This document shows, piece after piece, positions 8,758 to 63,085 of a DNA stretch of 64,000 bases. The notes below the pieces were generated by a model, which saw only the letters and a list, made by a program, of their open reading frames with translations, made no database searches and was not told the DNA's origin. The stretch's first letter is position 1. Every line of letters starts with the position of its first letter. A program made the translations under genes and the position numbers. Origin of the DNA: Amoebidium appalachense. Its lineage: Eukaryota; Protista; Ichthyosporea. The stretch lies in assembly GCA_963693365.1 (NCBI GenBank), contig CAVNZM010000003.1, forward strand, positions 10,322,101 to 10,386,100, given 5' to 3'.

Positions 8758-10630
8758 TGTAAAATTCTATAAGTATTTGGGACGGAGGCAGAGACACAGT
8801 GGTGCAGTGTGAAAACACCACAGACACACAACAACAAAACACGGAACGATCGGAGCAGTGTACACAACAGACATCAATGTTTAGACACGGCTGAACTCAA
8901 TTTATTTCGATCTCGCATAAATACTTAAAATTCCCTTAAGTCAAATCCATACATGATTTCCGACCAGTCGGAAATCAGATCTATGTCTAAAATAACCAAT
9001 CACAATTAACTGATTATTTCCCGGATAGATCCGGAGACACAGGAACGCACACTATAGGTCACAGCTATAAGAAAGTAATGAGGTGAAAAGTAACGAGGAA
9101 AGAGGTGTTGTTTCTAACATATCACCGGCTACAAAGACTCAGACATTTTCTGACTAAGTCTACTGATTGGATGTACAGTACGGCAAGACACAAAACAAAA
9201 GTGGTTGACTAAGCTATGAATCATACATGACAAGCTAAAGTGTAACCTAAGTGTTTTTCTACCAATCAAAACATAACGAGTAATATAAATCTACTCAACG
9301 TATATTAGTGAGAAAGAAATATAATTATGTGAAAGAAAACAAGGGAGAAAAGAAAGAGAAAAGAAAGAAGAAGAAGGAGGAAAAAGAAAAGAAAGCAGGA
9401 CAGAAAACACGAACACGAAAACACAGTTGTAACCGAAGTGTTGTAATACGTAGTATTTACATATGGTAAGATCTTCTCAGTTTGTGTTATGTTTCAGTTC
9501 ATATGCTTAGTGTAAATGCCACGCTCCTATTATGTAAAGTGTAGCATCGATCTCCGATATGCTTGTATACTTGCAATCGTGTTGTATCGGCTTTAATCGT
9601 GTGTTGTAATATCGATTAGAATATTTATATGTGTGCACACGGATCCACCCACTCAGGGATAGACGTGTACATGTTTGTGTGTACATAAATATCTCTGGTT
9701 ATAGTTATGTATTACTATCTTGTTTGTTGATCTGTGCTCTCCTTTTCTTTCTCTTTCTCCTTCCTTATTTTTCTTTTCTTTCTCTCCTTGTCTTCATGTG
9801 TATAATCGTATTTCTTTTCTACTAATATATGTTAGGTAGATTTGTGTTACCGTAATACGTGTTCATTGGACGGTAACACACTTAGGCTACACTTAGAATA
9901 ACATGTGTGTTTAGACTTCATTAATTTACTTTAGTTTTCATGTGTTGCCGGGCTTTAACCAATCATCAAGGTTAAGTGTGATATGTCTGAGTCTTTGCAG
10001 TGTGTCATAGGTTAGAACTTCCTTGATGATGACACGAGTTGATCTTAACTAGTGTCTGTGTCCTATCGTGTACGTCTCCGCGTACCAGATCTCTCTGAAA
10101 GCAATTGGTTCTTAGTGATTGGTTTCATTAGAGATAGATCTGATTTCCGACTGGTCGGAAATCATGTATGCATTAGACTTAGAGGAATTTCAGGTATTTA
10201 TTCGAAGATCAGAATAAATTGATTTCAGTCGTGTCTAAACATTGATGTCTGTAGTGTACACTGCTCCGATCGATTCCGTGTTTTGTTGTTATGTGTGTCT
10301 GTGGTGTTTTCACACTGCACCACTGTGTCTCTGCTTTCATCCCAAATACTTATATAATTTAACACGAAGATATTCATGTACACATAAACTTGTACACGTT
10401 TCTCCCTCACTGGGTAGACTCGTGTACCTATAATCAGTTGCTGTAATCGATATCTAAACACAGTCACGAATATAGCCGACACAGCATGTCGATTACAAGT
10501 ACTCAAATACACTGGAGATCGGTGTCATAATTTACGTACAAGGAGCACTTCTTTTACACTAAGTAAATGAACAAAAACATAACACGAACTGAGAAGATCT
10601 TACAATATGTAGATACTACGTATTACCGCA
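8758..10630 (-). mobile_element. Solo LTR (family A, older copy) interrupted by a second family-A solo LTR
   Basis: On the minus strand it starts TGCGGTAATACG and ends TTTTACA. The 5-bp TSD GCAGC lies at 8753-8757 and 10631-10635. Its two halves align in reverse complement with 9439-10364. Confidence 0.8.
9439..10364 (+). mobile_element. Solo LTR (family A, Copia-type ends)
   Basis: It starts TGTTGTAATACG and ends TTTAACA, with the 5-bp TSD CGAAG at 9434-9438 and 10365-10369. It contains the internal palindrome TGATTTCCGACTGGTCGGAAATCA. Confidence 0.85.
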
Positions 10631-12022: not shown

Positions 12023-12665
12023 TGTTGTAGTTTGTTTCCTTTTCCTTTCTTCATTTCTTTCTTTCTTTTCCGTTTCCGTGTACACGACATCTTAGATCTG
12101 TGTACGTATCGACATACTTAGCTCGCGCACACGTATTGTCGTTTGCGTCAAAATCTATATATGTCATCCAATCATATCTCGTTTGTATTTTCCCAAATAT
12201 AGTAACTTACATTCCTTTCTCATTCCTTTCCCACGACGTAGCATTGTGCTATGTTCTTCAACTATTAGGAATAATTATATTTAGACGTGTTATGATAAGA
12301 ACATGTATAAATATATGTTATGAATTAATAGTTACATAAGTGGTTTCATTTTATTAAATGTTTCCGTGCTTTTATTAGAAGTTTCTTTCATTAGAGGATT
12401 GAGTTTTATATTCTAAATGTCGACAGACATTTTATTCGATATATTTTACACTCATAGTTTTCATTCTTTTGATTGGTTTATCGTTTCACATTCCCAAGTA
12501 TAAAAGGGACCTCATCTTGAAATAAATCACAAGCAGTCGTATTCACTTCCTATGGTTCCAGAAATCGTTCCTCCTCTCCGGTTGTGTTTTTCCCGTGTGT
12601 CTTTGTGTTGTGTTTTACATAACACCCATCTGTGCTCTCTGCTTCTCCGTTTACCCACACAAAAT

Positions 12666-12669
<4 letters not shown>
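12023..12669 (+). mobile_element. LTR-like repeat (family B); 5' boundary uncertain
   Basis: Positions ~12180-12669 match the reverse complement of 17860-18307 plus 21452-21590. The repeat contains GATTGG and TATAAAAG and ends AAATAACA; a possible TGTTG start is at 12023. No TSD was seen. Confidence 0.6.
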
Positions 12670-12708
<39 letters not shown>

Positions 12709-13861: not shown

Positions 13862-13953
13862 TGTTGGAATACGTCACCATGTATGACAGCAAGAGCATTG
13901 AAGTATGTATGTGTCCTAGCTTGTTTGTATTCGTGTCTGCTTTCCTCCTTTGT

Positions 13954-14047
<94 letters not shown>

Positions 14048-14804
14048 CCCCCCCCCCCCCCCCCCCCCCCCCCGTATCTCTCTCTCCCTTGTTTCTGTGG
14101 GCACAGATATCGGTAGATCTGTGCACACCTGGCTCTCTTGCCTGATAAGAACTTATTGTGTTTTTATTTCTGTTTGCTCTCCTCTGTTTATCTGAGAGGT
14201 AGCGTGATTGGCTAGCCTCACTCGTTGTCTTTCCTTTATTTCAAAATGGCTTAGTTTTGTTCTCAAAAGGATGGCTCGCCAATAGTCGCGAGCGAGTACA
14301 TCTGTAGATTGTGTTGTGCATTCCTGTCTGTTAATATATGTGTGTTGTGATTGGACAATAGATATATATGGAATTCGGTTTATTGCAAAGTGTCATCACT
14401 TTGAAAGTGTCGACTGTCAGGAAATATATGTATTTAAATAAGTTTCTTTATAGAGACGAACATAAATATATATGTGAGTTAATAGTGACTAGATGTATAA
14501 TTACTTAATTTATTTAAGTAAGAGTTTCTACACTTTAGTTTAATCGGAAGTTGGAATGTGTATGCTCTGTCGGAATGTGTTTTTCTATCTTCTGATAGAA
14601 CCGATTGGTTCTCCCTCTTTAGTTGTGATAAGGTGATAAGTCGCAAGTACAAAAGGAACCGAGAGCACAATAAAGATTCAGTTGTTGTTTGAAATCTTTC
14701 AATGTCTCGTGAACAACTCCGATTGCCCTCTCATTAATGTGTTAAGTCGTGTTTTACATGACACCTCTGTGCACTCTGCTCCCTTAGACCCGTACAAAAC
14801 AACA
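13862..14804 (+). mobile_element. Solo LTR (family C, Copia-like)
   Basis: Termini are TGTTGGAATACG...AAAACAACA with the 5-bp TSD ATAGC at 13857-13861 and 14805-14809. A second, interrupted copy lies at 56249-63762 (-). Confidence 0.9.
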
Positions 14805-15342
14805 ATAGCACGTTCCAACCCTCCGCCGCCGGCACGCCTACACATGACGCCTAGGCCTGTGTATCATAATTAGCGCCATACAATAGTTGTACTTGAGCAT
14901 TGACGGCATTATTTCGTGATTTAAAATATAGTTTTCCCAGTCGAAATAAAGTTCACATGCCCTTTTGCGCGGTTTGATCTGAATCATCCGATAATGATGA
15001 TTCATGACTTGGAGGCGTGCGCAACGGAGTCCCCGGCGCCGGCCTACAACTCGGGAGGCATGCGCTGGTTCCCCCGCACATTAGAGAAGGTGGCAGCTGC
15101 TGACTGTTCAACTTATGTACAAGGTTTCTCCACTTTTTTCTTTTTAGTTAAATCCATGTGATTTTAAAAGATAGCTGAAAGCGCATTCCCTCTGGAATAT
15201 ATGACTTTTGGATTTTGTCCTGGTGCAGAGACTAGCGATCTTGCTAGCCTTGAGATCACAACCTAACCACTGCCGATGGTTGTGATGACGCCAGTAAAGG
15301 CGTGCTGGCTTTTACCCCAGCGAGAAGAGGATGAGAAAAAGA

Positions 15343-15415
15343 TGATCCCGACGGGATTTGAACCCGCGACCCCTCTAACTCCGGTCGAGTGCTCTACCAA
15401 CTGAGCTACGAGATC
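15343..15415 (-). tRNA. tRNA-like sequence in the 3' LTR (nominal anticodon GGA, short variable loop; probably not a translating tRNA)
   Basis: Sequence: GATCTCG TA GCTCAGTTGGTAGAGC A CTCGA CCGGAGT TAGAG GGGTC GCGGG TTCAAAT CCCGT CGGGATC A. It has a 7-bp acceptor stem, A and B boxes, and TTTTT 2 nt downstream. It also has C instead of U at position 33 and one anticodon-stem mismatch. Confidence 0.7.
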
Positions 15416-15707
15416 GGTTAAGATCTCGCAGGCCACCAGCCGATCATGATCTGTGCGATCGGACTGGATAACGATACCATCTTCCAACATCCCCACTCAG
15501 GACGAATCGCAGAATCAGGTTAGGGTGGACTGCCCCCTCAGTCCCCACTGAACCCCTGTTCATGCTACCATTTTGGATTTTGTCCTGGTGCAGAGACTAG
15601 CGATCTTGCTAGCCTTGAGATCACAACCTAACCACTGCCGATGGTTGTGATGACGCCAGTAAAGGCGTGCTGGCTTTTACCCCAGCGAGAAGAGGATGAG
15701 AAAAAGA

Positions 15708-15780
15708 TGATCCCGACGGGATTTGAACCCGCGACCCCTCTATCTCCGGTCGAGTGCTCTACCAACTGAGCTACGAGATC
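15708..15780 (-). tRNA. tRNA-like sequence in the 5' LTR
   Basis: Identical to 15343-15415 except for one anticodon-loop base (CCGGAGA). Confidence 0.7.
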
Positions 15781-16185
15781 GGTTAAGATCTCGCAGGCCA
15801 CCAGCCGATCATGATCTGATTCATGCGATCGGACTGGATAACGATACCATCTTCCAACAGTTAAATCCATGTGATTTTAAAAGATAGCTGAAAGCGCATT
15901 CCCTCTGGAATATATGACCACAGTTATTTCTGTGAACCCATTTTGGGGGTTGGGAGACTCCGAGAGGTTCAACTGAAAATTTTGAAATCCAGCCTGAGAA
16001 AGAAAATGTATCCGGTCAAAATTTATAATTTATACTTGCTTTCATTGCTTTATTGGCTCGACTCACACTACACAATACCGGATCGAATCGTCCCAAAATA
16101 CACAAACCCGTCCCGGCCCACTGGACCGAATCCACTAGCAGCTACTGCTATCGAGGGAGCACACACCCCCAGGCACACACACACA

Positions 16186-16236
<51 letters not shown>

Positions 16237-16299
16237 TGTGCAGATATCTATGTTAAGTGCGTCCGCGCGCGCAGGCGTGTGTGTGGTGTCCGCGTGCGC

Positions 16300-16344
<45 letters not shown>

Positions 16345-16385
16345 ACGGTGTGTGTGTGTGTGTGTGGGTGGGTGGGTGGGTGGGT

Positions 16386-16436
<51 letters not shown>

Positions 16437-16793
16437 GAAAGTAAGCTTGAAAGCTGCGACGGGGAAAGAAAATATGTGCGGTCGGGAGGGTGGGCGATGA
16501 GAGAGGAGGCGACGGGGAATATGCTAATAGACGACCGTCGGCTTATATACCCATAAGCCTCCTCTACCAGGCCGCTGATTGGCCACAGAACCATTGTGGC
16601 CCAATCAGACGACCGAAGAATAAGTTAATAAATGGAATTGTCCAATCAATTCAGACATTTATAACTTATACTTGCTACCTACGTCCACTATATACGGATT
16701 TTTGCTCTGCAACGACAACTAAAACCCACTAGATTAGTGTCGATCAAATTTCACAAAACTTTACATAATATACAGTACATTTTTGAGCACAGT

Positions 16794-17778
16794 TTACGAC
16801 AGTCGCACAGGGTCTAACTCGCGCAGGTCGCTGATGTACTCGTGGTCATCGGGGGTAGGGACGTGGCCCAACCCGTAGTTGTCCTCAGGGGTTTGGCCGG
16901 TGAGATTCCACACCCCCAGGTGCTTGATGGCTGGAAAGGGGATGCCAATTGCACGAGCAGCGCCGACCATGCCGTGACGGAGGCAGTGCCAGGTGATGCC
17001 GGTAGCCAGGGCGGGGAGCACGCCGAGGGCCTGCACCGCGCTGCGCAGCCAGCTGACGTCCTTGGTAGCGTTGGTGCAAGAGGGGGCTGGTGGGCTGCCG
17101 GATGTGCGCGCAGGCGCGCAGTAACAGCTGTGCGCACATGGGGGGAACCATGCGGTGGCGCACAGAGGGCTGAATCTACTTGCCAGCTGCCTGCTTGATG
17201 GTTCGAAAGGTCAGGTGGAGGCGTCGGGCTCCAGTGGGGGTGGGGTCCCCCCAGGTCAGGTCCCCCACCTGTACTGCAGCAGCGGTGCTCCACCGTAGGC
17301 CAAACAGGTAGCTCAACAGCATCCCCGCTAGCCAGCGGTCACCGTCGGGGTCCTGCCGGCCCAGCTGTGCGATGAGCAGGCCGGTGACCCAGGGTGCGTC
17401 AAACCGTTTTGGGTCGGGCGGGGTGGCGGTGGTGGTCTGGTAGGCCCTGCCGTAGGACTTCTTGATGGTTGCAAGGATGGCCTGGTCCAAATAGGGAATG
17501 TGCCACAGCAGGTGTACCTGGCGCAGGGCGGCAAACTTGCAGTCTGACGTGCTGGGGTGGTACGGGCGCGCTAGCAGGTGAGCCGCATAAGCCAAAGCTA
17601 CGTGTTCGGTAAGGGGCCAGGCAGCTAACTCGTGGGTGGCGCAAAAGGTGAGGTACTGGATTACCTCGGCTTGATATGCGCGCCACGTGTTCGCACTGAG
17701 GAGCTGCTCCACCTGTCCAGCTGCTGGCCAGTGGGGCGCAGGTTGCCAGGCAGTGACGAAATTACCGCCGCACGCCAC
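16794..17778 (-). pseudogene. Degenerate tyrosine recombinase (DIRS/Ngaro/Crypton-type)
   Basis: Motifs are an N-terminal LSANTWRAY, FGLR (R), RTIK (K), HCLRHG (HxxR), HLGVW and DNY (Y). There is one in-frame TAG at 17176-17178 and a frameshift near 17070. Confidence 0.8.
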
Positions 17779-17859
17779 TCGCTAAACACCCCCACGGTGG
17801 CAGGGGGGTTCTGGTGGCCGGGGAGCTTGCTGGGGCGGCTGCACGGGGAAGGGGGCCTT

Positions 17860-22593: not shown

Positions 22594-23857
22594 ATGCAGC
22601 TCAACGCGTATATGCTGACTGTGGCCGCGGCCCTCTCTCTCCACGAGGTATCCGCTCTCCCCGCTGTAGGCAACCGCGGCATGAATCTGGGCTCCTCCGG
22701 CTATGTTTCCCCGGCTGCCGCCACCGGATGCACTCTGCCCAACGGAGGCAGGCTCGGGCACGGGTTCAGAACGACATACAACGGCTGCGACTGCACATGC
22801 AGCGGCATCTCACTCGTGTGGGCCAGCGGCTGCAACGGAAATGAAAAGGGTTCGAACAACGGCGGCAAGTCGAATAACGGCTACAACGAATATTCCAACA
22901 GCTACAACGGAAATAACGGCTACAACGGGAAGAACGAAAAGAATGACAACAAGGGGGAGGACAAGGGAAACAACGGAAAATCCTATGAGTGGGGCAAGTG
23001 CGGAAGCTCCAACAACGGACAAGGCAACGGTGCAAGCAATACCGGCAACGCCTACGGTGGGGCCAAATCCAACGATGATACATATGGGAAAAACGGCAAC
23101 GCATACGGCCAAAGCGGCGGCAACGGTCAGGGTAATGCCTGGGACATGAACGGTGGCTATAAGAGTGGTTATGGCTCCGGATACAGTTCAGGTTCAAACA
23201 ACGCCGGCGAAAACGGCAACAACAACGGTAACGCTTATGCCTACGGTCGTGCCTGCCGTACACCCAATGGCTGGGACCTCCCCCACGGCCGCATTGGCCG
23301 TGTCAACAACTGCATCTGCCGGTGCAACGACGGTGCCCTCTCCTACAACACGGACTGCAACCCTCGCCCTAACCCGGGTCCTGCCCCCGCCCCCATGCCT
23401 GCCCCCGCCCCTGCCCCCGCCCCCGGACCTGGGCCTGTTAACCCCATTCAGTGTATCGATGCCTACGGTAGGCCAATCAAATGCCCTACCCCTTCCCCTG
23501 CCCCCGCCCCGGCTCCAGCCCCTGCCCCAGCCCCTGCCCCCCGCTCCGGCTCCGGCTCCGTCACCCTCCCCAGCCCCCGCCCCCGCTCCCATTGGGTGCA
23601 TTGACGCTTACGGTAGACCCATCCCGTGCCCTGCTCCTTCCCCGGCCCCGGCTCCAGCACCCGCACCCGCACCCGCGCCTTACCCTAATTCGTGTGTCGG
23701 GCCTAACGGTATGCCAATTAATGTCGGTGCGACCACCAGCCTCAACTGCCAACTGTGCACGTGTGATGCCAGCGGGCTGAGTTGTTTGGATGACCCGGCA
23801 TGCGGCAGAGGGTATGGTGAGGTGACTGATGTGGTGAATGGGCAGGGGACTGCATAA
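22594..23857 (+). CDS. Intronless secreted protein: signal peptide, VWC-like Cys modules, Gly/Asn-rich spacer, (PA)n linkers
   Basis: ORF 22594-23604 continues into ORF 23153-23857 across one extra C in a C-run near 23540, which is likely an assembly error. It has three C-x3-G...C-x-C-x2-G-type modules and two CIDAYGRPI.CP repeats. Confidence 0.75.
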
Positions 23858-46868: not shown

Positions 46869-47423
46869 TGCGTACCCGTGTAAATGCGTAAGCAACCGAG
46901 TAGTAATTGTGATTTCCAGGCAGGAAAGAAGATGAGGACGGCTTAGAGACACGTGCTGTGTGTGTGACCGCTTTCGTGTTGTGTATTTTACTAAGTGTGC
47001 GTATAGAGAAGGGGGGGGGGGGGGGGGGGGGGGGGGGGGAGGGTCTAGAAGGAGCTGAGAGTACGGAGTATTTGCACATTCATGACGGACAACACAATGT
47101 AGAGTGCAAAGCACAGTATAGATCGCAAAGCACACGTTTGGGGGCGGAGGGGGAGGGAGGGGGGGGGGGGGGGGGGGGGTTTCGTTTCGTGTATCACACT
47201 GGACATGGCTATTTTACCCCACAGAAACGAAATCACACATATACACATGAGGAGGACAGGGGAACGTATGATGAAACGGAGGGGAGAAAAGTGGGCGTGC
47301 ATGTATCGCTTTTCGTTTTGTTGTCGAGAGTGAGTTTGTGGATCCGAGTGTGCGACAGGGTGTGTATCTTTTGCCTTTGTATTTTCGTTTCTTTCCTTGC
47401 TAATTTTCCTTTTTCTTCTCTTT

Positions 47424-47484
<61 letters not shown>

Positions 47485-47492
47485 GGCTGTGC

Positions 47493-47631
<139 letters not shown>

Positions 47632-47678
47632 GGGGGGGATTATCGCTTTGGCCCAGGGGTACGTGGCCATGTCGGCAA

Positions 47679-48483
47679 GGTACAGGCCTCTTCCTTGACC
47701 GGCTACAATTCGGCCATCACCAGGCTCCACCTCGACATGGGCCTCCCTGCTCCCTACCCCCACGACAATCTGGCCTGGTTCCTACGTGGGGTGGGCAGAT
47801 GGCAGCTTTCTCACAACATCCGACCCCGCTCATCCACCAGAGAACCCCTCCTGCCCTCCCACCTCAGCCTACTCCATGGCCAGTGCCCCACCAAGGCCTC
47901 CTCGGCCAATCTCCGGCTATGGACGGCCCTCATCGTCGGTTTCTGTGGTCTCCTCCGTTCAGGGGAATTCACCTCCAAGACCCTGACTTCTTTCGACCCG
48001 TCCCGTCACGTTAAACGGAAGGACGTGACCTTCAGCTACACCCCCACCGGTACTTTGTCCCATGCCACCCTCCACCTGCCAACCTCTAAGACGGATGTAC
48101 AGGCCCGAGGGGTCAACGTCACTCTAGCTGCCCTGCCCCTCACCCACTTCTCCCCAGCCCATCTCCTCCGGCAGTTCCTGGATACAACGTCCGGTCAACC
48201 CGACGACCCCCTCTTCAGTCTCGGTGGCATCCCCTACACCAAGAGTGCTTTCTCTGCCGACTTCCGTGCCCTCCTCTCCCGGGCAGGCCTCTCACCCTCC
48301 CGGTTTGCCGGACACAGCCTCCGCATCGGGGGGGCCACAGCACTGGCTGAGGCCGGGGTCGACGACTCCCGGATCAAACAACTCGGCAGGTGGTCCTCCG
48401 ACTGTTTCCTGATCTATACCCGACTTCGTCCGGCCTCCATTGCTGCCACTACCACACGTGTATTCGCCTCTATTCTTAAGTGA
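47679..48483 (+). CDS. Tyrosine recombinase, N-terminally truncated, catalytic domain open
   Basis: Motifs [20 protein letters not shown] and [11 protein letters not shown] are present. Confidence 0.9.
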
Positions 48484-49157
48484 AGCCTTTGGAGCAAGCA
48501 TACTGCTCTCGTGCCGTGGTTTACAACCATTGCAGGTTCACTTTCGTCCAAGGGGATGTCCCCCTAGAGGCAACACACGTCTCGGAGTAGTTTTCATAGA
48601 GGTTTTATTTGTGGAAATTATTGACATAATTATTTTTCTGGGTAAACACGTAGGATGGGTGTCCGATATCAACAGGCTTCGTTTCATGTTTTAGCAGTTC
48701 GCGTTCGGCGGCCCGCATACGGGCACCTATTAGCCGATCAAAACATCAGATTCCACAGATCACTAGACCAAGTTTGATTGGCTCAGGATCAGATTTCACA
48801 TAACACTAGATCGATTTTGATTGGCTCAGTTCGGTAGCCTTAGGTATATAAGCACGACAGTTTTTAGCAGATCAGCAAGCAACAAACACATCTTCTGTGT
48901 TTAGCACCTACAGCTTTACAGCTATATTTTCTTTTCACCCACCCACCTACACCCTACACCCAACCCCCATTGATCCCCACATACGTGCTGTTTTTTCACG
49001 GGGCGAAGACTTCCCCCGTTTTTTGGGCACAAGGACCTCACGGATCAATAAAATGATGACTGGGGGCTTGCCGTGGTTTACAACCATTGCAGGTTCACTT
49101 TCGTCCAAGGGGATGTCCCCCTAGAGGCAACACACGTCCCGGAGTAGTTTTCATAGA
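47679..49157 (+). mobile_element. 5'-truncated Ngaro/DIRS-type tyrosine-recombinase retrotransposon with split direct repeats
   Basis: A YR ORF is followed by 89-bp direct repeats at 48512-48600 and 49069-49157 (one mismatch). They enclose a CCAAT/TATA-containing segment, matching the B1-A2-B2 layout. Confidence 0.85.
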
Positions 49158-56174: not shown

Positions 56175-56693
56175 TCAGTTGTTGTTTGAATCTTTCGATT
56201 GCAGCGAGAGTATGTGTTGCGAGAGCGTGCGAAAATGGGCCTTTAACCTGTTGTTTTGTACGAGTCTAAGGGAGCAGAGTGCACAGAGGTGTCATGTAAA
56301 ACACGCCGTGACTAACACGTTAATGAGAGGGCAATCGGAGTTGTTCACGAGACATTGAAAGATTCAAACAACAACTGATTCTTTATTGTGCTCTCGGTTC
56401 CTTTTGTACTTGCGACTTATCACCTTATCACAACTAAAGAGGGAGAACCAATCGGTTCTATCAGAAGATAGAAAAACACATTCCGACAGAGCATACGCAT
56501 TCCAACTTCCGATTAAACTAAAGTTTAGAAACTCTTACTTAAATAAATTAAGTAATTATACATCTAGTCACTATTAACTCACATATATATTTATGTTCGT
56601 CTCTATAAAGAACCTTATTTAAATACATATATTTCCTAATAGTCGACACTCTCAAAGTGAAGACACTTTGCAATAAACCGAATTCCATATATA

Positions 56694-58700
56694 GCTCTAG
56701 TAAGTCTTGTGGACCTGATGGACTCCCTGCTGGGTTTCTTAAAATCCTTGTTCCCTCCTACCCACAAAAGGAAAGTGATCGTGCTATTAAACCTGATCTT
56801 ACTATCATGTTAAGCTCTCTCTTTTCTTGGTGTGTTAAATGTGGACATGTCCCGTCATCTTGGTTAGATACCTTAGTGATCCCCATAGTTAAGAAGGACT
56901 CTGAGGGCCCCATATCATCCTTTCGCCCCATTACACTAACCCAGGTTGTTCGTAGATTCTTTGAAGCTTGCTTACTTAGGTTATTTGCACATCACCCTAG
57001 GTTTCAATCTATTCTTCACATACACCCATGCCAATCCGCTTTTCGTAAAAACAATTCATGTTATGTTCAAATAATGGCACTGCACGATTCTATGCAAGTT
57101 GGTGCACAATATGTTGGCTTTATTGATTGGAAAACTGCTTACGATTCTGTCTCCCCTGGTCTCCTATGGGAAAAGCTTGCTGCACGGGGTGTACCACACT
57201 GCATTGGTGTTCTGTTAGAAGCACTCTTGTCTCAAACCTATGGTAGAGCTGTGGTTAATGGGCATCTCTCATATGGTTTTGCTCGTACTAGAGGTCTCTT
57301 GCAGGGTTCATTGCTTAGCCCCTTTTTGTTTAACCTATTTATAGATGATTTGGCTGTCAAGATTTACGCCGAAAACGATGACCCTATTAATAACTTTCCG
57401 CCTGCACTTCTCTATGCTGATGATCTGTCCCTCCTTGCCCGTACCCCTAGACGCCTGCAAAGATTGTTCGATGTAGTGTCAGAGTGGTGCAAGGCAAACC
57501 TTATGATCCTTAACATAGACAAATGTGGTGTTCTTGTACCTGATATAGCTAACAATTTACACACATTTACATTATCATCTAAACCTGTACCTATAGTTCC
57601 AGAATACAAATATCTTGGTGTTCCGGTTGATTCTGTTGGTGTTATGTTTCCCCATATGGTCGAAAAGAGGGTAGAGTTGGCTCGTAAGCGGTTAGCTTTC
57701 TTCTCGGCTAATATTTTTAAAGACACACCCCTCCATCCTTCTATTAGACTTACATTTATTCGCACTTTTGTCTTCCCGGCATGTGAATATGGTTTACCCC
57801 TTCTCGCCGCTTGGATCAAGAAAGAGAGAACTAGAGCGCTTAAACCCTTGGCAAATTTCCTTGAAGCAGAAGTTGCCTCCTTTCTATCTAACAACTGTTG
57901 TAAACCTGGGCCTGTAACGCTCTCGATATATGGTCTGGTCCCAATAGCTGCTAGAGTATCCTATCTCGCGCTGAAATTCAATAAGCACATAAGCCGCTTA
58001 AAGAAGTATTTGCCCTCCCACCCTCTCTTCTCTATCCGACCTGTCCCCTCCTCACCTCTCCCCTCTTTCCTCCCCTCTCTCTCCCCTTCTCCCCTGGGCA
58101 CAAATACAAATAAACCCCGCAATAGTGTGTGTGTGACTTTGGACTGCCACTTACTTATTAAACATGTACACAATCACAAGATAATCACGCAATATAACAA
58201 ATGGAAAAAGATACCACACGACACTAGACCCGATGAAAGCATACACCTTGAAAAACTAAGCCTTATGTCTCGTTTTATATATACTGACCGCCTCAACCAT
58301 ATTGCCAAATATGGCACTCGCAAGTGTATAACACCTAAATACATATTACCTTCCTGTAGAACTGGTCTTTCTCTAGCTGATGGTATTATTGATCAATTAC
58401 CACGCTTTTACTGTACACGTGCTATACAGTGGAGATCTAATAAGTATAAGGTGACATCATTTGCATGCCCAAACAACACACACACACACCAGTTTAACCG
58501 GTCATGTATCGCCAAATGTAGTTTGATAGACCACATAATACCGCAACACACACACGTCACATTCACAACAGACACCCAGAAAGATAGCCTACCTGTAAAT
58601 TACAACATCCTTGATTTTATACTAAACACGCGTAACTACGACCTGTTTATTAGATGTATTGATTGGCTTGAGAAACACATCACTACAAAATTATAGCGCA

Positions 58701-58769
<69 letters not shown>

Positions 58770-58801
58770 CCAGCTGATACCGAGTGTCCCGAGGGGAGCC
58801 C

Positions 58802-58844
<43 letters not shown>

Positions 58845-59040
58845 GGGGAACCCCAACTAATTGATTTCTCCTTGTAGTCTTTATGGTGTCTCGTAGAGAA
58901 AGTAAACCCTGATATATAGTCACCACCCGACATCTATGTACGTGATCATGATATACCGCTGAGGGGATATTCCGAGCAAAACCCCCCCCCCCATACCTGA
59001 GACTGGTTCTCTTTGCCTCGAGTAAACAGCGTAAACCCCC
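56694..59040 (+). mobile_element. 5'-truncated non-LTR retrotransposon (LINE)
   Basis: An RT ORF runs to 58696, followed by a (CA)n 3' UTR and an A-run at 58806-58843. A CCATATATA duplication lies at 56685-56693 and 59041-59049, confirmed against the empty site near 14365. Confidence 0.85.
56696..58696 (+). CDS. Non-LTR reverse transcriptase (endonuclease region missing), open reading frame
   Basis: Motifs: KSCGPDG, FRPITL, QSAFRK, IDWKTAYDSV, GLLQGSLLSPFLFNLFI, YADD, YKYLG, and a C-terminal QWR..C...C region. The first codons of the listed ORF (56657-56693) are LTR sequence. Confidence 0.92.
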   Translation, partial: SSKSCGPDGLPAGFLKILVPSYPQKESDRAIKPDLTIMLSSLFSWCVKCGHVPSSWLDTLVIPIVKKDSEGPISSFRPITLTQVVRRFFEACLLRLFAHHPRFQSILHIHPCQSAFRKNNSCYVQIMALHDSMQVGAQYVGFIDWKTAYDSVSPGLLWEKLAARGVPHCIGVLLEALLSQTYGRAVVNGHLSYGFARTRGLLQGSLLSPFLFNLFIDDLAVKIYAENDDPINNFPPALLYADDLSLLARTPRRLQRLFDVVSEWCKANLMILNIDKCGVLVPDIANNLHTFTLSSKPVPIVPEYKYLGVPVDSVGVMFPHMVEKRVELARKRLAFFSANIFKDTPLHPSIRLTFIRTFVFPACEYGLPLLAAWIKKERTRALKPLANFLEAEVASFLSNNCCKPGPVTLSIYGLVPIAARVSYLALKFNKHISRLKKYLPSHPLFSIRPVPSSPLPSFLPSLSPSPLGTNTNKPRNSVCVTLDCHLLIKHVHNHKIITQYNKWKKIPHDTRPDESIHLEKLSLMSRFIYTDRLNHIAKYGTRKCITPKYILPSCRTGLSLADGIIDQLPRFYCTRAIQWRSNKYKVTSFACPNNTHTHQFNRSCIAKCSLIDHIIPQHTHVTFTTDTQKDSLPVNYNILDFILNTRNYDLFIRCIDWLEKHITTKL

Positions 59041-59882
59041 CCATATATATCTATTGTCCAATCACAACACACATATATTAATAGACAGGAATGCACAACA
59101 CGATCTACAGATGTACTCGCTCGCGACTATAGGGGTTCAGTAACAATGACGTCACAGCGGCGATCGCTCCGAGAAGGAGGGCAAGGGTCCAAAATGTGCG
59201 TTCGCATATCGATCCACGAAAACGAAAAGGCCACGAAAACGAAACAAGCACACGAAAAGTAAACGTAAAAAATGGGGTTTGATAATCTTTTACCAGTGGT
59301 TGGCCTGACGGAGAAAAAGAAAAAGGGGTGCACTTTTGCCGAGCTCTTTAGTTTGTGACAAGCGGATGGGCATTGATTAGCTAGTGCTATTCTTCACAAG
59401 GCCCTTAGTAGTGTAACTGCAAAGTCGAAGGAAAGCCATGAACTAGCTATGTTATTGCACACATCTGACAGCCCACACACAATAGTGTTACCAAAAGCAA
59501 TAGTGGAAAAGATAACCGAAATTTCAAGAAGAAATACACTTCTGGCAACATGGACTGGGGCTACCCCTGTGCCTGTTTTTGTCTTTGATGGGCAGATGAG
59601 GTAGGGTATGGTTCCACACATACATATGATGGTAAAGCCGGGGGGTGGGGGGGGGGGGGGGGGGGGGAGAAGAAGCCCCGGTGGAAGGTTGGGGGGGAGA
59701 AGGGGAGTAGTTAAGGGAGTGAAGCTCGGAAAAGGGAGGGGGGGGGGGGGGGGGGGATAAAGATGGGAGAGTGAAGGTAGGAAGGTGTGTGGGAAAGAAG
59801 CTCGAAGGGGAGAGAGGTAGAAAAGTAAACGAAGAGGGGAGTGGAGGGGGGGGGGAGGGTGTAGATAAGAGTGATGGTTTCT

Positions 59883-61564: not shown

Positions 61565-63085
61565 TTATGGGGCTTCTTCCTCCCAGTGCACGAGTTTGCC
61601 TTGGAAGCGTGTAAGCCCAAAGCAAACTCGGACAACCTGGGAGTGATTGGGCACCATGGTGATGGGAACAGTATCCGTGAGGATCTTGTTCTCCTTCGCC
61701 CGCCCAATAGCCCGCTCAATATGAATCCGCACAGCGGCAATATCACGGGTGGAGGCCAGCTCCTCCTGTGAGAAGATTGTTCCCTTTGCAAGGAAGGGAG
61801 GGATAACAAGGTGCATATTTGCTTGTTTGAGCAGAACTTCTATGAGGAAACCCTTGTCTGCCATAACCTGTGCACCAGGCCAGCATTTTTTTATTATGCC
61901 CGACACATCAGTAATAAGACGGTCACTTATTCTACCTGGATAACACGATGATACATAGAATATTTTACCAGAGGGAAGCATGGCAACTAAAACTTTTACA
62001 GTGTTGTGTCCTTTATATCTGGAATATGTAAGCTTTTGGAGCTCAGTGTTACTAGCCACCTGAATAAAGAATTCCGTGCAGTCCAAAATCATAGCGACGT
62101 GGGGATAGTTTTGCTTGAAACAAGGCAGGGCGTTTGCAGTTACGGCGGCTGCAGTAAATGCACCGTTTTGTAGTATATCCAAAAGAGGGTGTTCGAACAT
62201 GCATTTAAGCAAATAAAAGCCCCGCCAAAACGTTTTTCGTGTTGTCTTTTCACCTATGTTAAACAGGAAGGCCATGTGGTGAAACGGGAAATTGTGCCAC
62301 AGTCTCACAAGCACCAGCAGGATTGCGTTCTCAAACGACAGTGCTCTCTTTGGGCCCCGAGCCCCCACCCCGGTAACTGGGTCGACCCCCATATACAGAA
62401 GGTGGAGGTGAAATTCGAAACAGAGCAAAATGAACGCTTTGAACGCATTGCCCGTTGTGAAATGTGTGTAGAAACGAGTTTTGAAGTCCGACTGCACAAC
62501 ACCATCGTAGGTGAGTTTGCTGATGCAGTTGATCTCTTTCTCTTTCAGAGGCTGACCAAGACTCTCGTTTTTGCGCTCAACAGTCTCCATACGTGCTTCC
62601 AAAACGGCACATTTGTCCCGCAACTGTTTGAGTTCCGAGTCCATGTCTGAAATCTGCTTGTTTCGCTTCCCCACCACCATATTGAGTGTGCCGATCTGTT
62701 TGTTGAGCTCATCAACCGAAGTGTTTTGTTCCCACTCGCGACGACGCTTGGTGCGTCCGTCCTCCCCCAAGAGCAAGTCTGCTTCCCGCTGCTTCCCGCT
62801 GCCTTTTGGCGTCTTCGGCCTGCCGGCGTAGTCCTTCCTCTTACTCACGTGTGTGCGGTATGGCCCCAGCCACTAAGGTTGCAGTGGGGCCGAACACAAA
62901 TGACCCTTCGGGAAAATGGACATGGCACACCCCTAGATCCTTCCTCAGGTCATCTTCCGTGTACCTTGGCCGTATTTGCTTAAACCACGAACTAACAACC
63001 TCTGCACTGTGCCTTCGAATAAGCACCTGCTTACAACCAGGCCCAGCAGTGGCCTTGAGTGGTCTGCTGCACAACGAGAGGGCAT
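61565..63085 (-). CDS. THAP + HTH + DDE (DDE_Tnp_4-type) transposase; the THAP part is out of frame with the main ORF
   Basis: ORF 61565-62848 has RFYTHF, ILLVLVRLWHNF..LFNI, ILDCTE, YSRYKGHNTVK, GRISD, MADKGF and RIHIERAIGRAK. The upstream frame 62841-63074 has W..IR, VCHVHF and GAIP. Confidence 0.88.

What the first reader, a model, noticed from the sequence alone, without database searches (positions are those of the whole stretch)
15206..15859. TRIM whose LTRs carry a tRNA-like Pol III gene: a tRNA counterpart of Cassandra
Seen: on the minus strand the layout is LTR(289)-PBS-81 bp-PPT-LTR(284). Each LTR holds a sense-oriented 73-nt cloverleaf with intact A/B boxes, paired acceptor/D/T stems and a TTTTT terminator, but a degenerate anticodon arm (C33, G-A mismatch, GGA with a short variable loop). 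The PBS is complementary to ...TCATGCTACCA, an initiator-Met-like tRNA 3' end. Known: plant Cassandra TRIMs carry 5S rRNA Pol III promoters in their LTRs. Inference: this element captured a tRNA promoter in the same way and borrows Copia-type machinery, since its TGTTGGAA start matches the family-C LTR here. I do not know of a described family like this, but I cannot search.
Basis: partly seen in the sequence, partly recalled or inferred. Interest (0 to 1): 0.85.

Follow-up and report, generated by a model that had tools for sequence, protein, structure and literature searches.

The report
Helenus-type mini retrotransposon in Amoebidium
This is a real, dispersed, gene-less mini LTR retrotransposon with a tRNA look-alike in each end repeat (likely its promoter); the design was published in 2024 as Helenus, so it is ordinary in kind and new only as a family in a likely Amoebidium host, a single-celled relative of animals.

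Summary
The layout is confirmed on the minus strand: LTR 289 nt, internal part 81 nt, LTR 284 nt. Each LTR holds a 73-nt tRNA-like unit (Rfam 57/55 bits) followed by TTTTT. The 'tRNA counterpart of Cassandra' is published: Helenus (Kojima 2024, PMC10886601). This scan already holds 16 notes on the kind in at least 9 other genomes. A LINE in the window is 98-99% identical to Amoebidium parasiticum proteins, so the host is likely an ichthyosporean; none is on Kojima's host list. Contigs from public runs show a dispersed family: 7 other flanks at the 3' end, 7 rows at the 5' end, depth about 90 times the flank in one run. The LTRs end TG...AA, not TG...CA, in every full-length 3' junction shown. 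This copy is flanked by an exact 59-bp duplication, not a 4-5-bp one; whether that is real or an assembly artefact is unresolved. The link to 'family C' is unsupported (8 shared end bases, a different likely primer). A 1.1-kb contig sharing the LTR end and primer site is a better helper lead. Pol III transcription is inferred, not shown. Verdict: new member of a known kind.

The parts
15571..15859 (-). 5' LTR, 289 nt, TGTTGG...CCAAAA; hairpin-rich
   Evidence: folding z = -4.6, 0 of 200 shuffles as stable; this version matches the collapsed contigs of X1 and X6 without a difference, and X8 shows its two diagnostic alleles
15708..15780 (-). tRNA-like unit of the 5' LTR; box A about 15773-15762, box B about 15729-15719; broken anticodon arm (C33, G30-A40, GGA)
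   Evidence: box positions read from the sequence
15771..15796 (-). predicted 10-bp hairpin joining U3 (15796-15787) to the first 10 nt of the tRNA unit; same in the 3' LTR (15431-15422 with 15415-15406)
   Evidence: folding prediction only
15701..15705 (-). TTTTT, Pol III terminator-like; a full-length transcript would have to read through it
15563..15570 (-). primer-binding site core TGGTAGCA, directly after the LTR; 3'-end initiator-Met type (inferred)
   Evidence: same first 8 nt as internal parts of rust Helenus-3_PTrit and Helenus-5_PSt
15490..15570 (-). 81-nt non-coding internal region
15490..15498 (-). polypurine tract GAGTGGGGA abutting the 3' LTR
15206..15489 (-). 3' LTR, 284 nt (5-nt deletion in U3, A38 to T), ends CCAAAA
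15343..15415 (-). tRNA-like unit of the 3' LTR
15336..15340 (-). TTTTT, predicted end of a 445-nt genomic RNA with an 80-nt R region
   Evidence: inferred
15860..15918 (.). upstream copy of the exact 59-bp flank duplication
15147..15205 (.). downstream copy of the exact 59-bp flank duplication
   Evidence: its junction with the LTR end lies on contigs of X5 and X17, with 29 and 5 LTR bases only

Best explanation
This is a 654-bp non-coding LTR retrotransposon in miniature of the Helenus type, a dispersed multicopy family in a likely Amoebidium genome, whose tRNA-derived cassette likely serves as an internal RNA polymerase III promoter and which is likely copied and inserted by the enzymes of an autonomous, probably Copia-type, element. 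Shown: two LTRs, a primer site and a polypurine tract at the right places, a tRNA-like unit with intact boxes A and B and a broken anticodon arm, many insertion flanks, TG...AA ends. Inferred: Pol III would start at tRNA position +1 (15780), sometimes read through the first TTTTT and stop at the second (15336), giving a 445-nt RNA with an 80-nt terminal repeat (U3 79 nt, U5 130 nt). A host initiator-Met tRNA would prime minus-strand synthesis at TGGTAGCA; strand transfer over the repeated tRNA unit would rebuild both LTRs; the helper's integrase would insert the DNA. The unit is predicted not to work as a tRNA. The 59-bp flank duplication of this copy is either an aberrant, one-ended insertion finished by host repair or an assembly artefact, at about even odds.
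For: Structure. Match to the published definition (TRIM under 1 kb with a tRNA-derived LTR sequence, PBS and PPT; sizes 311-1263 bp): PMC10886601. Multicopy: contigs laid in 8 of 8 runs tried; in X1 the element contig has depth 1208.8 against 13.2 for the flank (the tool warns that depth is no copy number, so read it as 'tens of copies'). Sharp ends: 8 loose-end rows with 7 different flanks follow the full CCAAAA end, and 7 rows follow the full TG end (30 of 42 loose-end rows were shown). One 3' flank maps to the LINE in this window, whose sequence has no T run there, so the four A's belong to the element. U3 sits upstream of the tRNA in the 5' LTR, which needs LTR-type strand transfer. Copia lean: the primer site starts like those of some rust Helenus, fungal Helenus are tied to Copia in the paper, non-TGCA ends are mainly Copia (bioRxiv 10.1101/137141, passages), and a solo LTR in the window has a 5-bp TSD. 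Host.
Against: No transcript, start site or Pol III occupancy was seen. No 4-5-bp TSD was shown for any copy: this one has 59 bp, and none of the 7 listed 5' flanks pairs with any of the 7 listed 3' flanks by a 5-bp repeat (expected under 1 pair if there are 50-100 sites, so uninformative). The TTTTT after the 5' tRNA should stop most Pol III transcripts at 80 nt. The host initiator tRNA 3' end was not available, and only 8 nt of the PBS are supported by comparison. No autonomous Copia or Gypsy coding sequence was found among 43 of 85 long window ORFs scanned. Two 5' junctions are one base short and one X8 contig leaves the LTR 19 nt before its end. The host call rests on one mobile gene.
Confidence: 0.82

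Rival explanations
1. It is a TRIM transcribed by Pol II from U3 or from flanking promoters; the tRNA is a passenger (an old SINE or tRNA insertion) copied into both LTRs, with no promoter role today.
For: TTTTT lies 2 nt after the 5' tRNA and would stop Pol III before the PBS. No RNA evidence was obtained. Kojima states that Helenus promoter function is not experimentally validated.
Against: Boxes A and B and the acceptor, D and T stems are intact while only the anticodon arm has decayed, the pattern that Kojima reports across Helenus. U3 is only 79 nt. Contigs in X3 and X17 stop matching exactly at tRNA +1 and share one foreign flank, so +1 is a real boundary.
Confidence: 0.1
2. It is a tRNA-derived SINE dimer inserted by LINE machinery: a long variable target duplication and an A-rich 3' end are LINE signatures.
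For: 59-bp duplication, 3' end AAAA, an intact LINE RT frame in the window; very long target duplications are described for LINEs (PMC9977147, passages).
Against: The unit starts 79 nt upstream of the tRNA with TGTTGG, not at the Pol III start. A PBS and a PPT sit exactly at the inner LTR borders. All 8 full-length 3' rows end in the same four A's and 7 of 9 5' rows end at the same TG, unlike tailed, 5'-truncated SINEs.
Confidence: 0.04
3. Sub-question: the 59-bp flank duplication is an assembly or polishing artefact at a heterozygous or mosaic insertion that really has a normal 5-bp TSD.
For: Contigs with a single 59-mer and no element exist in 3 of 8 runs (X1, X2, X3), one of them from the same listed sample as the runs with the filled junction. 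The junction between the upstream copy and the LTR start is in none of the pieces shown (767 pieces were not shown).
Against: A 59-bp repeat collapses in 31-mer graphs, so 'empty' contigs also arise from a real duplication. Both copies and both LTR ends are exact. A joint that a 5-bp TSD allele would give (skipping 54 bases after 15859) is listed in neither call. One poor LTR end is known to give long host duplications in retroviruses (PMC5041404, passages).
Confidence: 0.45
4. The cassettes are functional tRNA genes amplified by the element.
For: ARAGORN and Rfam score them well; folded alone, the acceptor, D and T stems form (0.80-1.00).
Against: C33, G30-A40, and a Ser-type anticodon on a body without a long variable arm; anticodon stem probability 0.00-0.06 in all 7 contexts folded.
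Confidence: 0.03

Closest known systems
Helenus (TRIMp3), Kojima 2024, Biology 13:119, PMC10886601 (whole text read; supplement parts 1, 10, 11 of 11 read, the rest searched by terms; figures not seen)
   Same: TRIM under 1 kb, tRNA-derived sequence with boxes A and B in both LTRs, degenerate isotype, T run after the tRNA, PBS and PPT, no coding capacity. Size 654 bp lies within 311-1263 bp. The PBS start TGGTAGCA is shared with rust families such as Helenus-3_PTrit and Helenus-5_PSt; a non-CA end occurs in LTR-1_PGr (ends TA).
   Different: Host likely an ichthyosporean; Table 1 and Table S1 list only fungi, animals and Selaginella. No listed family has LTR 289 / internal 81, and 5 motifs of 11-13 nt from this element are absent from the supplement. 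Ends TG...AA. This copy has a 59-bp instead of a 4-5-bp duplication. The primer is of the fungal (Copia-linked) type, not of the types listed for animal Helenus.
Cassandra (plants) and Ajax (nemerteans); seen only as described in PMC10886601
   Same: Small-RNA-gene-derived Pol III promoter in the LTRs of a TRIM; for Cassandra, transcription from the 5' LTR unit into the 3' LTR unit is reported.
   Different: 5S rRNA-derived, not tRNA-derived; Cassandra's R is 18 nt, here 80 nt is predicted.
Non-TGCA Copia elements (Tos17 TG...GA, AtRE1 TA...TA, TARE1 TA...CA; bioRxiv 10.1101/137141, passages; its Table S2 of seven motifs not seen)
   Same: Non-palindromic LTR termini tolerated, mostly in Copia.
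   Different: Those are coding elements; TG...AA is not named in the main text (0 hits for TGAA), but the supplement was closed.

Membership tests
Helenus | Two LTRs, total under about 1 kb, no coding capacity | tested here: met
   654 bp; longest stop-free frame 77 codons
Helenus | tRNA-derived sequence with boxes A and B inside each LTR | tested here: met
Helenus | tRNA unit unlikely to be functional (isotype disagreement) | tested here: met
   C33, G30-A40, GGA on a short-variable-loop body; tRNAscan-SE itself was not available
Helenus | PBS directly after the 5' LTR, complementary to a host tRNA | tested here: inconclusive
   TGGTAGCA at the junction, as in some rust Helenus; host tRNA set not available
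Helenus | PPT before the 3' LTR | tested here: met
   GAGTGGGGA, 8 of 9 purines
Helenus | Dispersed repeat with fixed LTR ends | tested here: met
   7 different 3' flanks, 7 full 5' rows
Helenus | 4- or 5-bp target site duplication | tested here: inconclusive
   Not met in this copy (59 bp); for the family no two flanks could be paired
Helenus / TRIMp3 | Transcription by Pol III from the LTR unit | not testable with these tools
   Only contigs were available; unvalidated for Helenus in general
Helenus | Sequence membership in a named family | tested here: not met
   Motif searches of the supplement and the size table show no matching family; Repbase and Dfam could not be searched
Cassandra / Ajax | 5S rRNA-derived sequence in the LTR | tested here: not met
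   Rfam scan of 14500-16500 at E up to 1 lists only the two tRNA matches
SINE2 (tRNA SINE) | Starts at the tRNA head, variable tail, no PBS/PPT | tested here: not met
   79-nt U3 upstream of the tRNA, fixed ends, PBS and PPT

The most novel reading that the evidence does not exclude
This family has lost the CA at its right end (TG...AA in all copies seen), so the helper integrase joins only the left end properly and host repair completes the right one, making long, variable target duplications such as the 59 bp seen here a regular feature: a Pol III-driven mini-retrotransposon in an animal relative that spreads by one-ended integration, with a U3 hairpin that hides its tRNA fold from RNase P.
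Probability: 0.1. Interest if true: 0.6.

Novelty: new member of a known kind. Interest (0 to 1): 0.24.

Why it matters
Modestly. It extends Helenus to a likely unicellular holozoan, between the fungal (Copia-linked) and animal (Gypsy-linked) groups, with a fungal-type primer. It looks young and abundant in a cultivable protist, so it offers a test of the still unvalidated claim that Helenus LTRs are Pol III promoters, and of how one TTTTT can be read through in the 5' LTR and obeyed in the 3' LTR. It will also inflate tRNA gene counts with false 'Ser-GGA' genes. If long target duplications were the rule for this TG...AA family, it would be a natural case of one-ended integration.

Tried and rejected
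No whole genome is held, so no genome-wide census of copies, solo LTRs, TSDs or host tRNAs was possible. The LTR start was not found in metagenome contigs (24-mer) or viral contigs (20-mer). A spaced pattern (box B, T run, PBS) gave 119 metagenome loci from 55 of 64 parts; 18 BLAST hits to the element, all confined to the tRNA part; 8 repeat pairs in 7 loci were not examined further. No RNA holder was listed; X18 is only guessed to be RNA and is not used as evidence of expression. A secreted-protein ORF (22594-23604) had no homologue. Pairing 5' and 3' flanks through repeats in the window: 13 flank motifs searched, 3 mapped (LINE 57422, repeat 10595, family C LTR 56628), none to the same target. 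The idea that the trailer after the tRNA is built to unfold the cloverleaf was rejected: 169 of 200 shuffled trailers do as well. The U3 leader hairpin is only weakly special (5 of 200 shuffles as disruptive, but shuffles already average 0.15). The internal region does not fold better than chance (z -1.5). Family C as helper: not supported. Literature: searches for Helenus+TRIM+tRNA, TRIMp3 (38), Amoebidium+LTR+retrotransposon (40), Ichthyosporea+Copia (55), Amoebidium+tRNA genes+transposable elements (73) listed no paper that, by title and start of abstract, reports such an element in Ichthyosporea; PMC11244446 has 0 hits for tRNA, Copia and SINE in its main text, but its supplements and repeat library were not seen and may hold the family under an automatic name. 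Subscription papers, Repbase and Dfam were not searchable.

Full report
Observation. The minus strand carries a 289-nt LTR (15859-15571), an 81-nt internal part and a 284-nt LTR (15489-15206); the LTRs differ by one 5-nt indel and one substitution. ARAGORN finds 2 tRNA genes in the whole window, one in each LTR, and Rfam scores them 57.4 and 55.2 bits against a cut-off of 29. Acceptor, D and T stems pair; the anticodon arm has C33, a G30-A40 mismatch and GGA on a body with a short variable loop. TTTTT follows each unit, and these are the only runs of four or more T on the sense strand (with so short an element this is not beyond chance by my rough estimate). TGGTAGCA begins at the first base after the 5' LTR and GAGTGGGGA abuts the 3' LTR. 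There is no coding capacity.

Two things were missed. Both LTRs end CCAAAA, one base away from the CCAACA that would mirror the TGTTGG start. And the element is flanked by an exact 59-bp duplication, the only prefix-suffix match up to 119 bp, not by a 4-5-bp one.

Host. No genome is held. A LINE reverse transcriptase frame at 56609-58696 is 99% and 98% identical, over about half its length each, to two EukProt proteins filed under Amoebidium parasiticum; the next hit is at 48%. Amoebidium is an ichthyosporean opisthokont. This rests on one mobile gene, so the host is 'likely Amoebidium'.

Is it a family? 20 of 24 listed public runs hold half or more of the sampled words. I laid 8 of them; all are contigs, not reads. 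In X1 one 400-nt contig covers the collapsed LTR plus internal part at depth 1208.8, against 13.2 for the flank contig; the tool warns that depth is no copy number, so I read this only as tens of copies. Of 42 loose-end rows, 30 were shown. Eight rows, with 7 different flanks, follow the complete CCAAAA end; one flank is shared by X2 and X5. Seven rows follow the complete TG start; two are one base short; one X8 contig leaves the LTR 19 nt before its end. One 3' flank maps exactly to the LINE in this window (57422-57441), where the target continues with C, so the four A's are the element's own. Two 5' flanks map to other repeats of the window. The family is dispersed, has fixed ends, and ends TG...AA. 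The 5' LTR version is the one in the collapsed contigs of X1, X6 and X8.

Target duplication. No listed 5' flank pairs with a listed 3' flank by 5 bp, which is uninformative with so few sampled. For this site, contigs in 3 of 8 runs (X1, X2, X3) join the two flanks across a single 59-mer. Contigs in 2 of 8 runs (X5, X17) run from the flank through the 59-mer into the LTR end, with 29 and 5 LTR bases, below the tool's 31-letter rule for a bridge. X1, X5 and X17 are listed as one sample. A 59-bp repeat collapses in a 31-mer graph, so neither form decides the matter. The upstream junction is in none of the pieces shown (115 and 652 pieces were not shown). In retroviruses, when one end is a poor integrase substrate, host enzymes insert it and often leave long duplications (PMC5041404, passages). 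That fits an AA end, but an assembly artefact at a polymorphic site is about as likely.

What is known. Kojima 2024 (PMC10886601; whole text read; supplement parts 1, 10 and 11 of 11; figures not seen) defines Helenus as TRIMs with tRNA-derived sequence in their LTRs, PBS and PPT, 311-1263 bp, with 5-bp TSDs in fungi and Selaginella and 4-bp TSDs in animals. Fungal families are tied to Copia, animal ones to Gypsy; promoter function is stated to be unvalidated. The host tables list no protist, and the supplement has 0 hits for Amoebidium and for 5 motifs of this element; a sixth, the generic box A stretch, occurs once in a bivalve family. Some rust families begin their internal part with the same TGGTAGCA, and the paper reports 3'-end initiator-Met priming among them; that TGGTAGC reflects the A1-U72 pair of eukaryotic initiator tRNA is recalled knowledge. 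A 2026 paper cites Helenus as established (PMC13570524, passages). This scan holds 16 earlier notes with these words in at least 9 genomes, 8 shown, all filed as Helenus; none by sequence, by place or under Amoebidium. I had found the paper before that look-up.

How it likely works. Pol III would start at 15780. Stopping at the first TTTTT gives 80 nt; reading through and stopping at the second gives 445 nt with an 80-nt repeat at both ends, which is what reverse transcription needs to rebuild U3 (79 nt) and U5 (130 nt). An initiator-Met tRNA would prime at the PBS, and with no spacer between LTR and PBS the DNA end would be blunt, as recalled for Ty1/Copia. The LTR folds far better than shuffles (z -4.6). 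Alone, the tRNA unit keeps its acceptor stem (0.97 and 0.86); in the 445-nt RNA that stem is lost in both copies (0.00). For the 5' copy this is not special (169 of 200 shuffled trailers do the same). For the 3' copy a 10-bp hairpin joins U3 to the first tRNA bases (5 of 200 shuffles as strong), which might shield the RNA from RNase P; this is a weak, prediction-only lead. All steps in this paragraph are inferred.

Helper. That family is real: a solo LTR at 13862-14804 with the 5-bp TSD ATAGC and a second, interrupted copy from 63762 to 56249. It shares TGTTGGAA and a similar A-rich end, but nothing else, and the second copy is followed by GGTTAAAGGCCCA, the best match in the window (11 of 13) to the half-tRNA primer motif like the one that opens many rust Helenus. 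So it likely uses another primer. A better lead is a contig of about 1.1 kb seen in both X3 and X5 that shares the LTR end, the PBS and 38 nt of internal sequence (3 differences, 1 gap) and then runs on for 1034 nt downstream; its sequence was not shown. This recalls the internal-region match between LTR-1_PTrit and Copia-9_PGr. One X3 loose end places a half-tRNA-type primer sequence 7 nt upstream of this element's PBS, which may be a recombinant with such an element; it is a single contig. No Copia or Gypsy domain was found in 43 of the 85 long window ORFs scanned.

Verdict. The feature is real and works like a Helenus element. It meets the structural membership tests; the TSD test is failed by this copy and open for the family; it matches no named family. 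It is a new member of a known kind in a likely new host lineage, with a TG...AA end and an unexplained 59-bp duplication as its only oddities. Interest 0.24.

Noticed in passing
window 13862-14804 (+) and 63762-56249 (-): LTR family C: a 943-bp solo LTR (TG...CA) with 5-bp TSD ATAGC, and a second copy split by two insertions and followed by a half-tRNA-like primer site and about 75 bp before GGGA repeats; likely Copia-type.
   Followed up: partly
window 63333-59134: DNA transposon inside the second family C LTR: DDE_Tnp_4 plus HTH_Tnp_4 frame at 61565-62872, short inverted ends and what reads as an AT target duplication (ISL2EU/Harbinger-like, label recalled).
   Followed up: partly
window 56696-59041: LINE inside the same LTR with an open 695-codon RT frame, 98-99% identical to Amoebidium parasiticum transcriptome proteins; another copy of this LINE carries a copy of the TRIM (X17 flank).
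   Followed up: yes
window 47404-48483 (+) and 17176-17781 (-): Tyrosine recombinase frames (Phage_integrase and Phage_int_SAM_1), the first followed by an 89-bp direct repeat at 48512/49069; DIRS- or Crypton-like elements.
   Followed up: no
X3 at 15780 and X17 at 15415; X3 at 15746 and 15705: Contigs that match the tRNA unit from exactly +1 with a shared foreign upstream flank in two samples, and others that leave it at position 35 or just after its 3' end: a source gene, a retroposed Pol III product or a sister subfamily.
   Followed up: no
X2 at 15569 and X5 at 15205: Two 3' flanks overlap in opposite orientation, which places two insertions tail to tail about 41 bp apart in the same target sequence (or in two copies of a repeat).
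   Followed up: partly
window 8758-10626: Two diverged copies of a repeat in inverted orientation (about 75% identical); another copy of it is a TRIM target (X5 flank maps to 10595-10614).
   Followed up: partly
window 12264-12672 and 18307-17857: A further repeat related to family C by its end (CACAAAATAACA), two copies at 81% identity; likely more solo LTRs.
   Followed up: no
window about 51230-46500 (-): Exons that read like a glutathione S-transferase gene (by eye; Pfam did not call the one frame tested), separated by introns full of poly-C, poly-G and CA repeats.
   Followed up: no
window 22594-23604 (+): Intronless frame for a predicted secreted, Asn/Gly-rich protein with two Cys-rich motifs and a Pro-Ala tail; no Pfam hit and no homologue among 7994 candidates.
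   Followed up: partly
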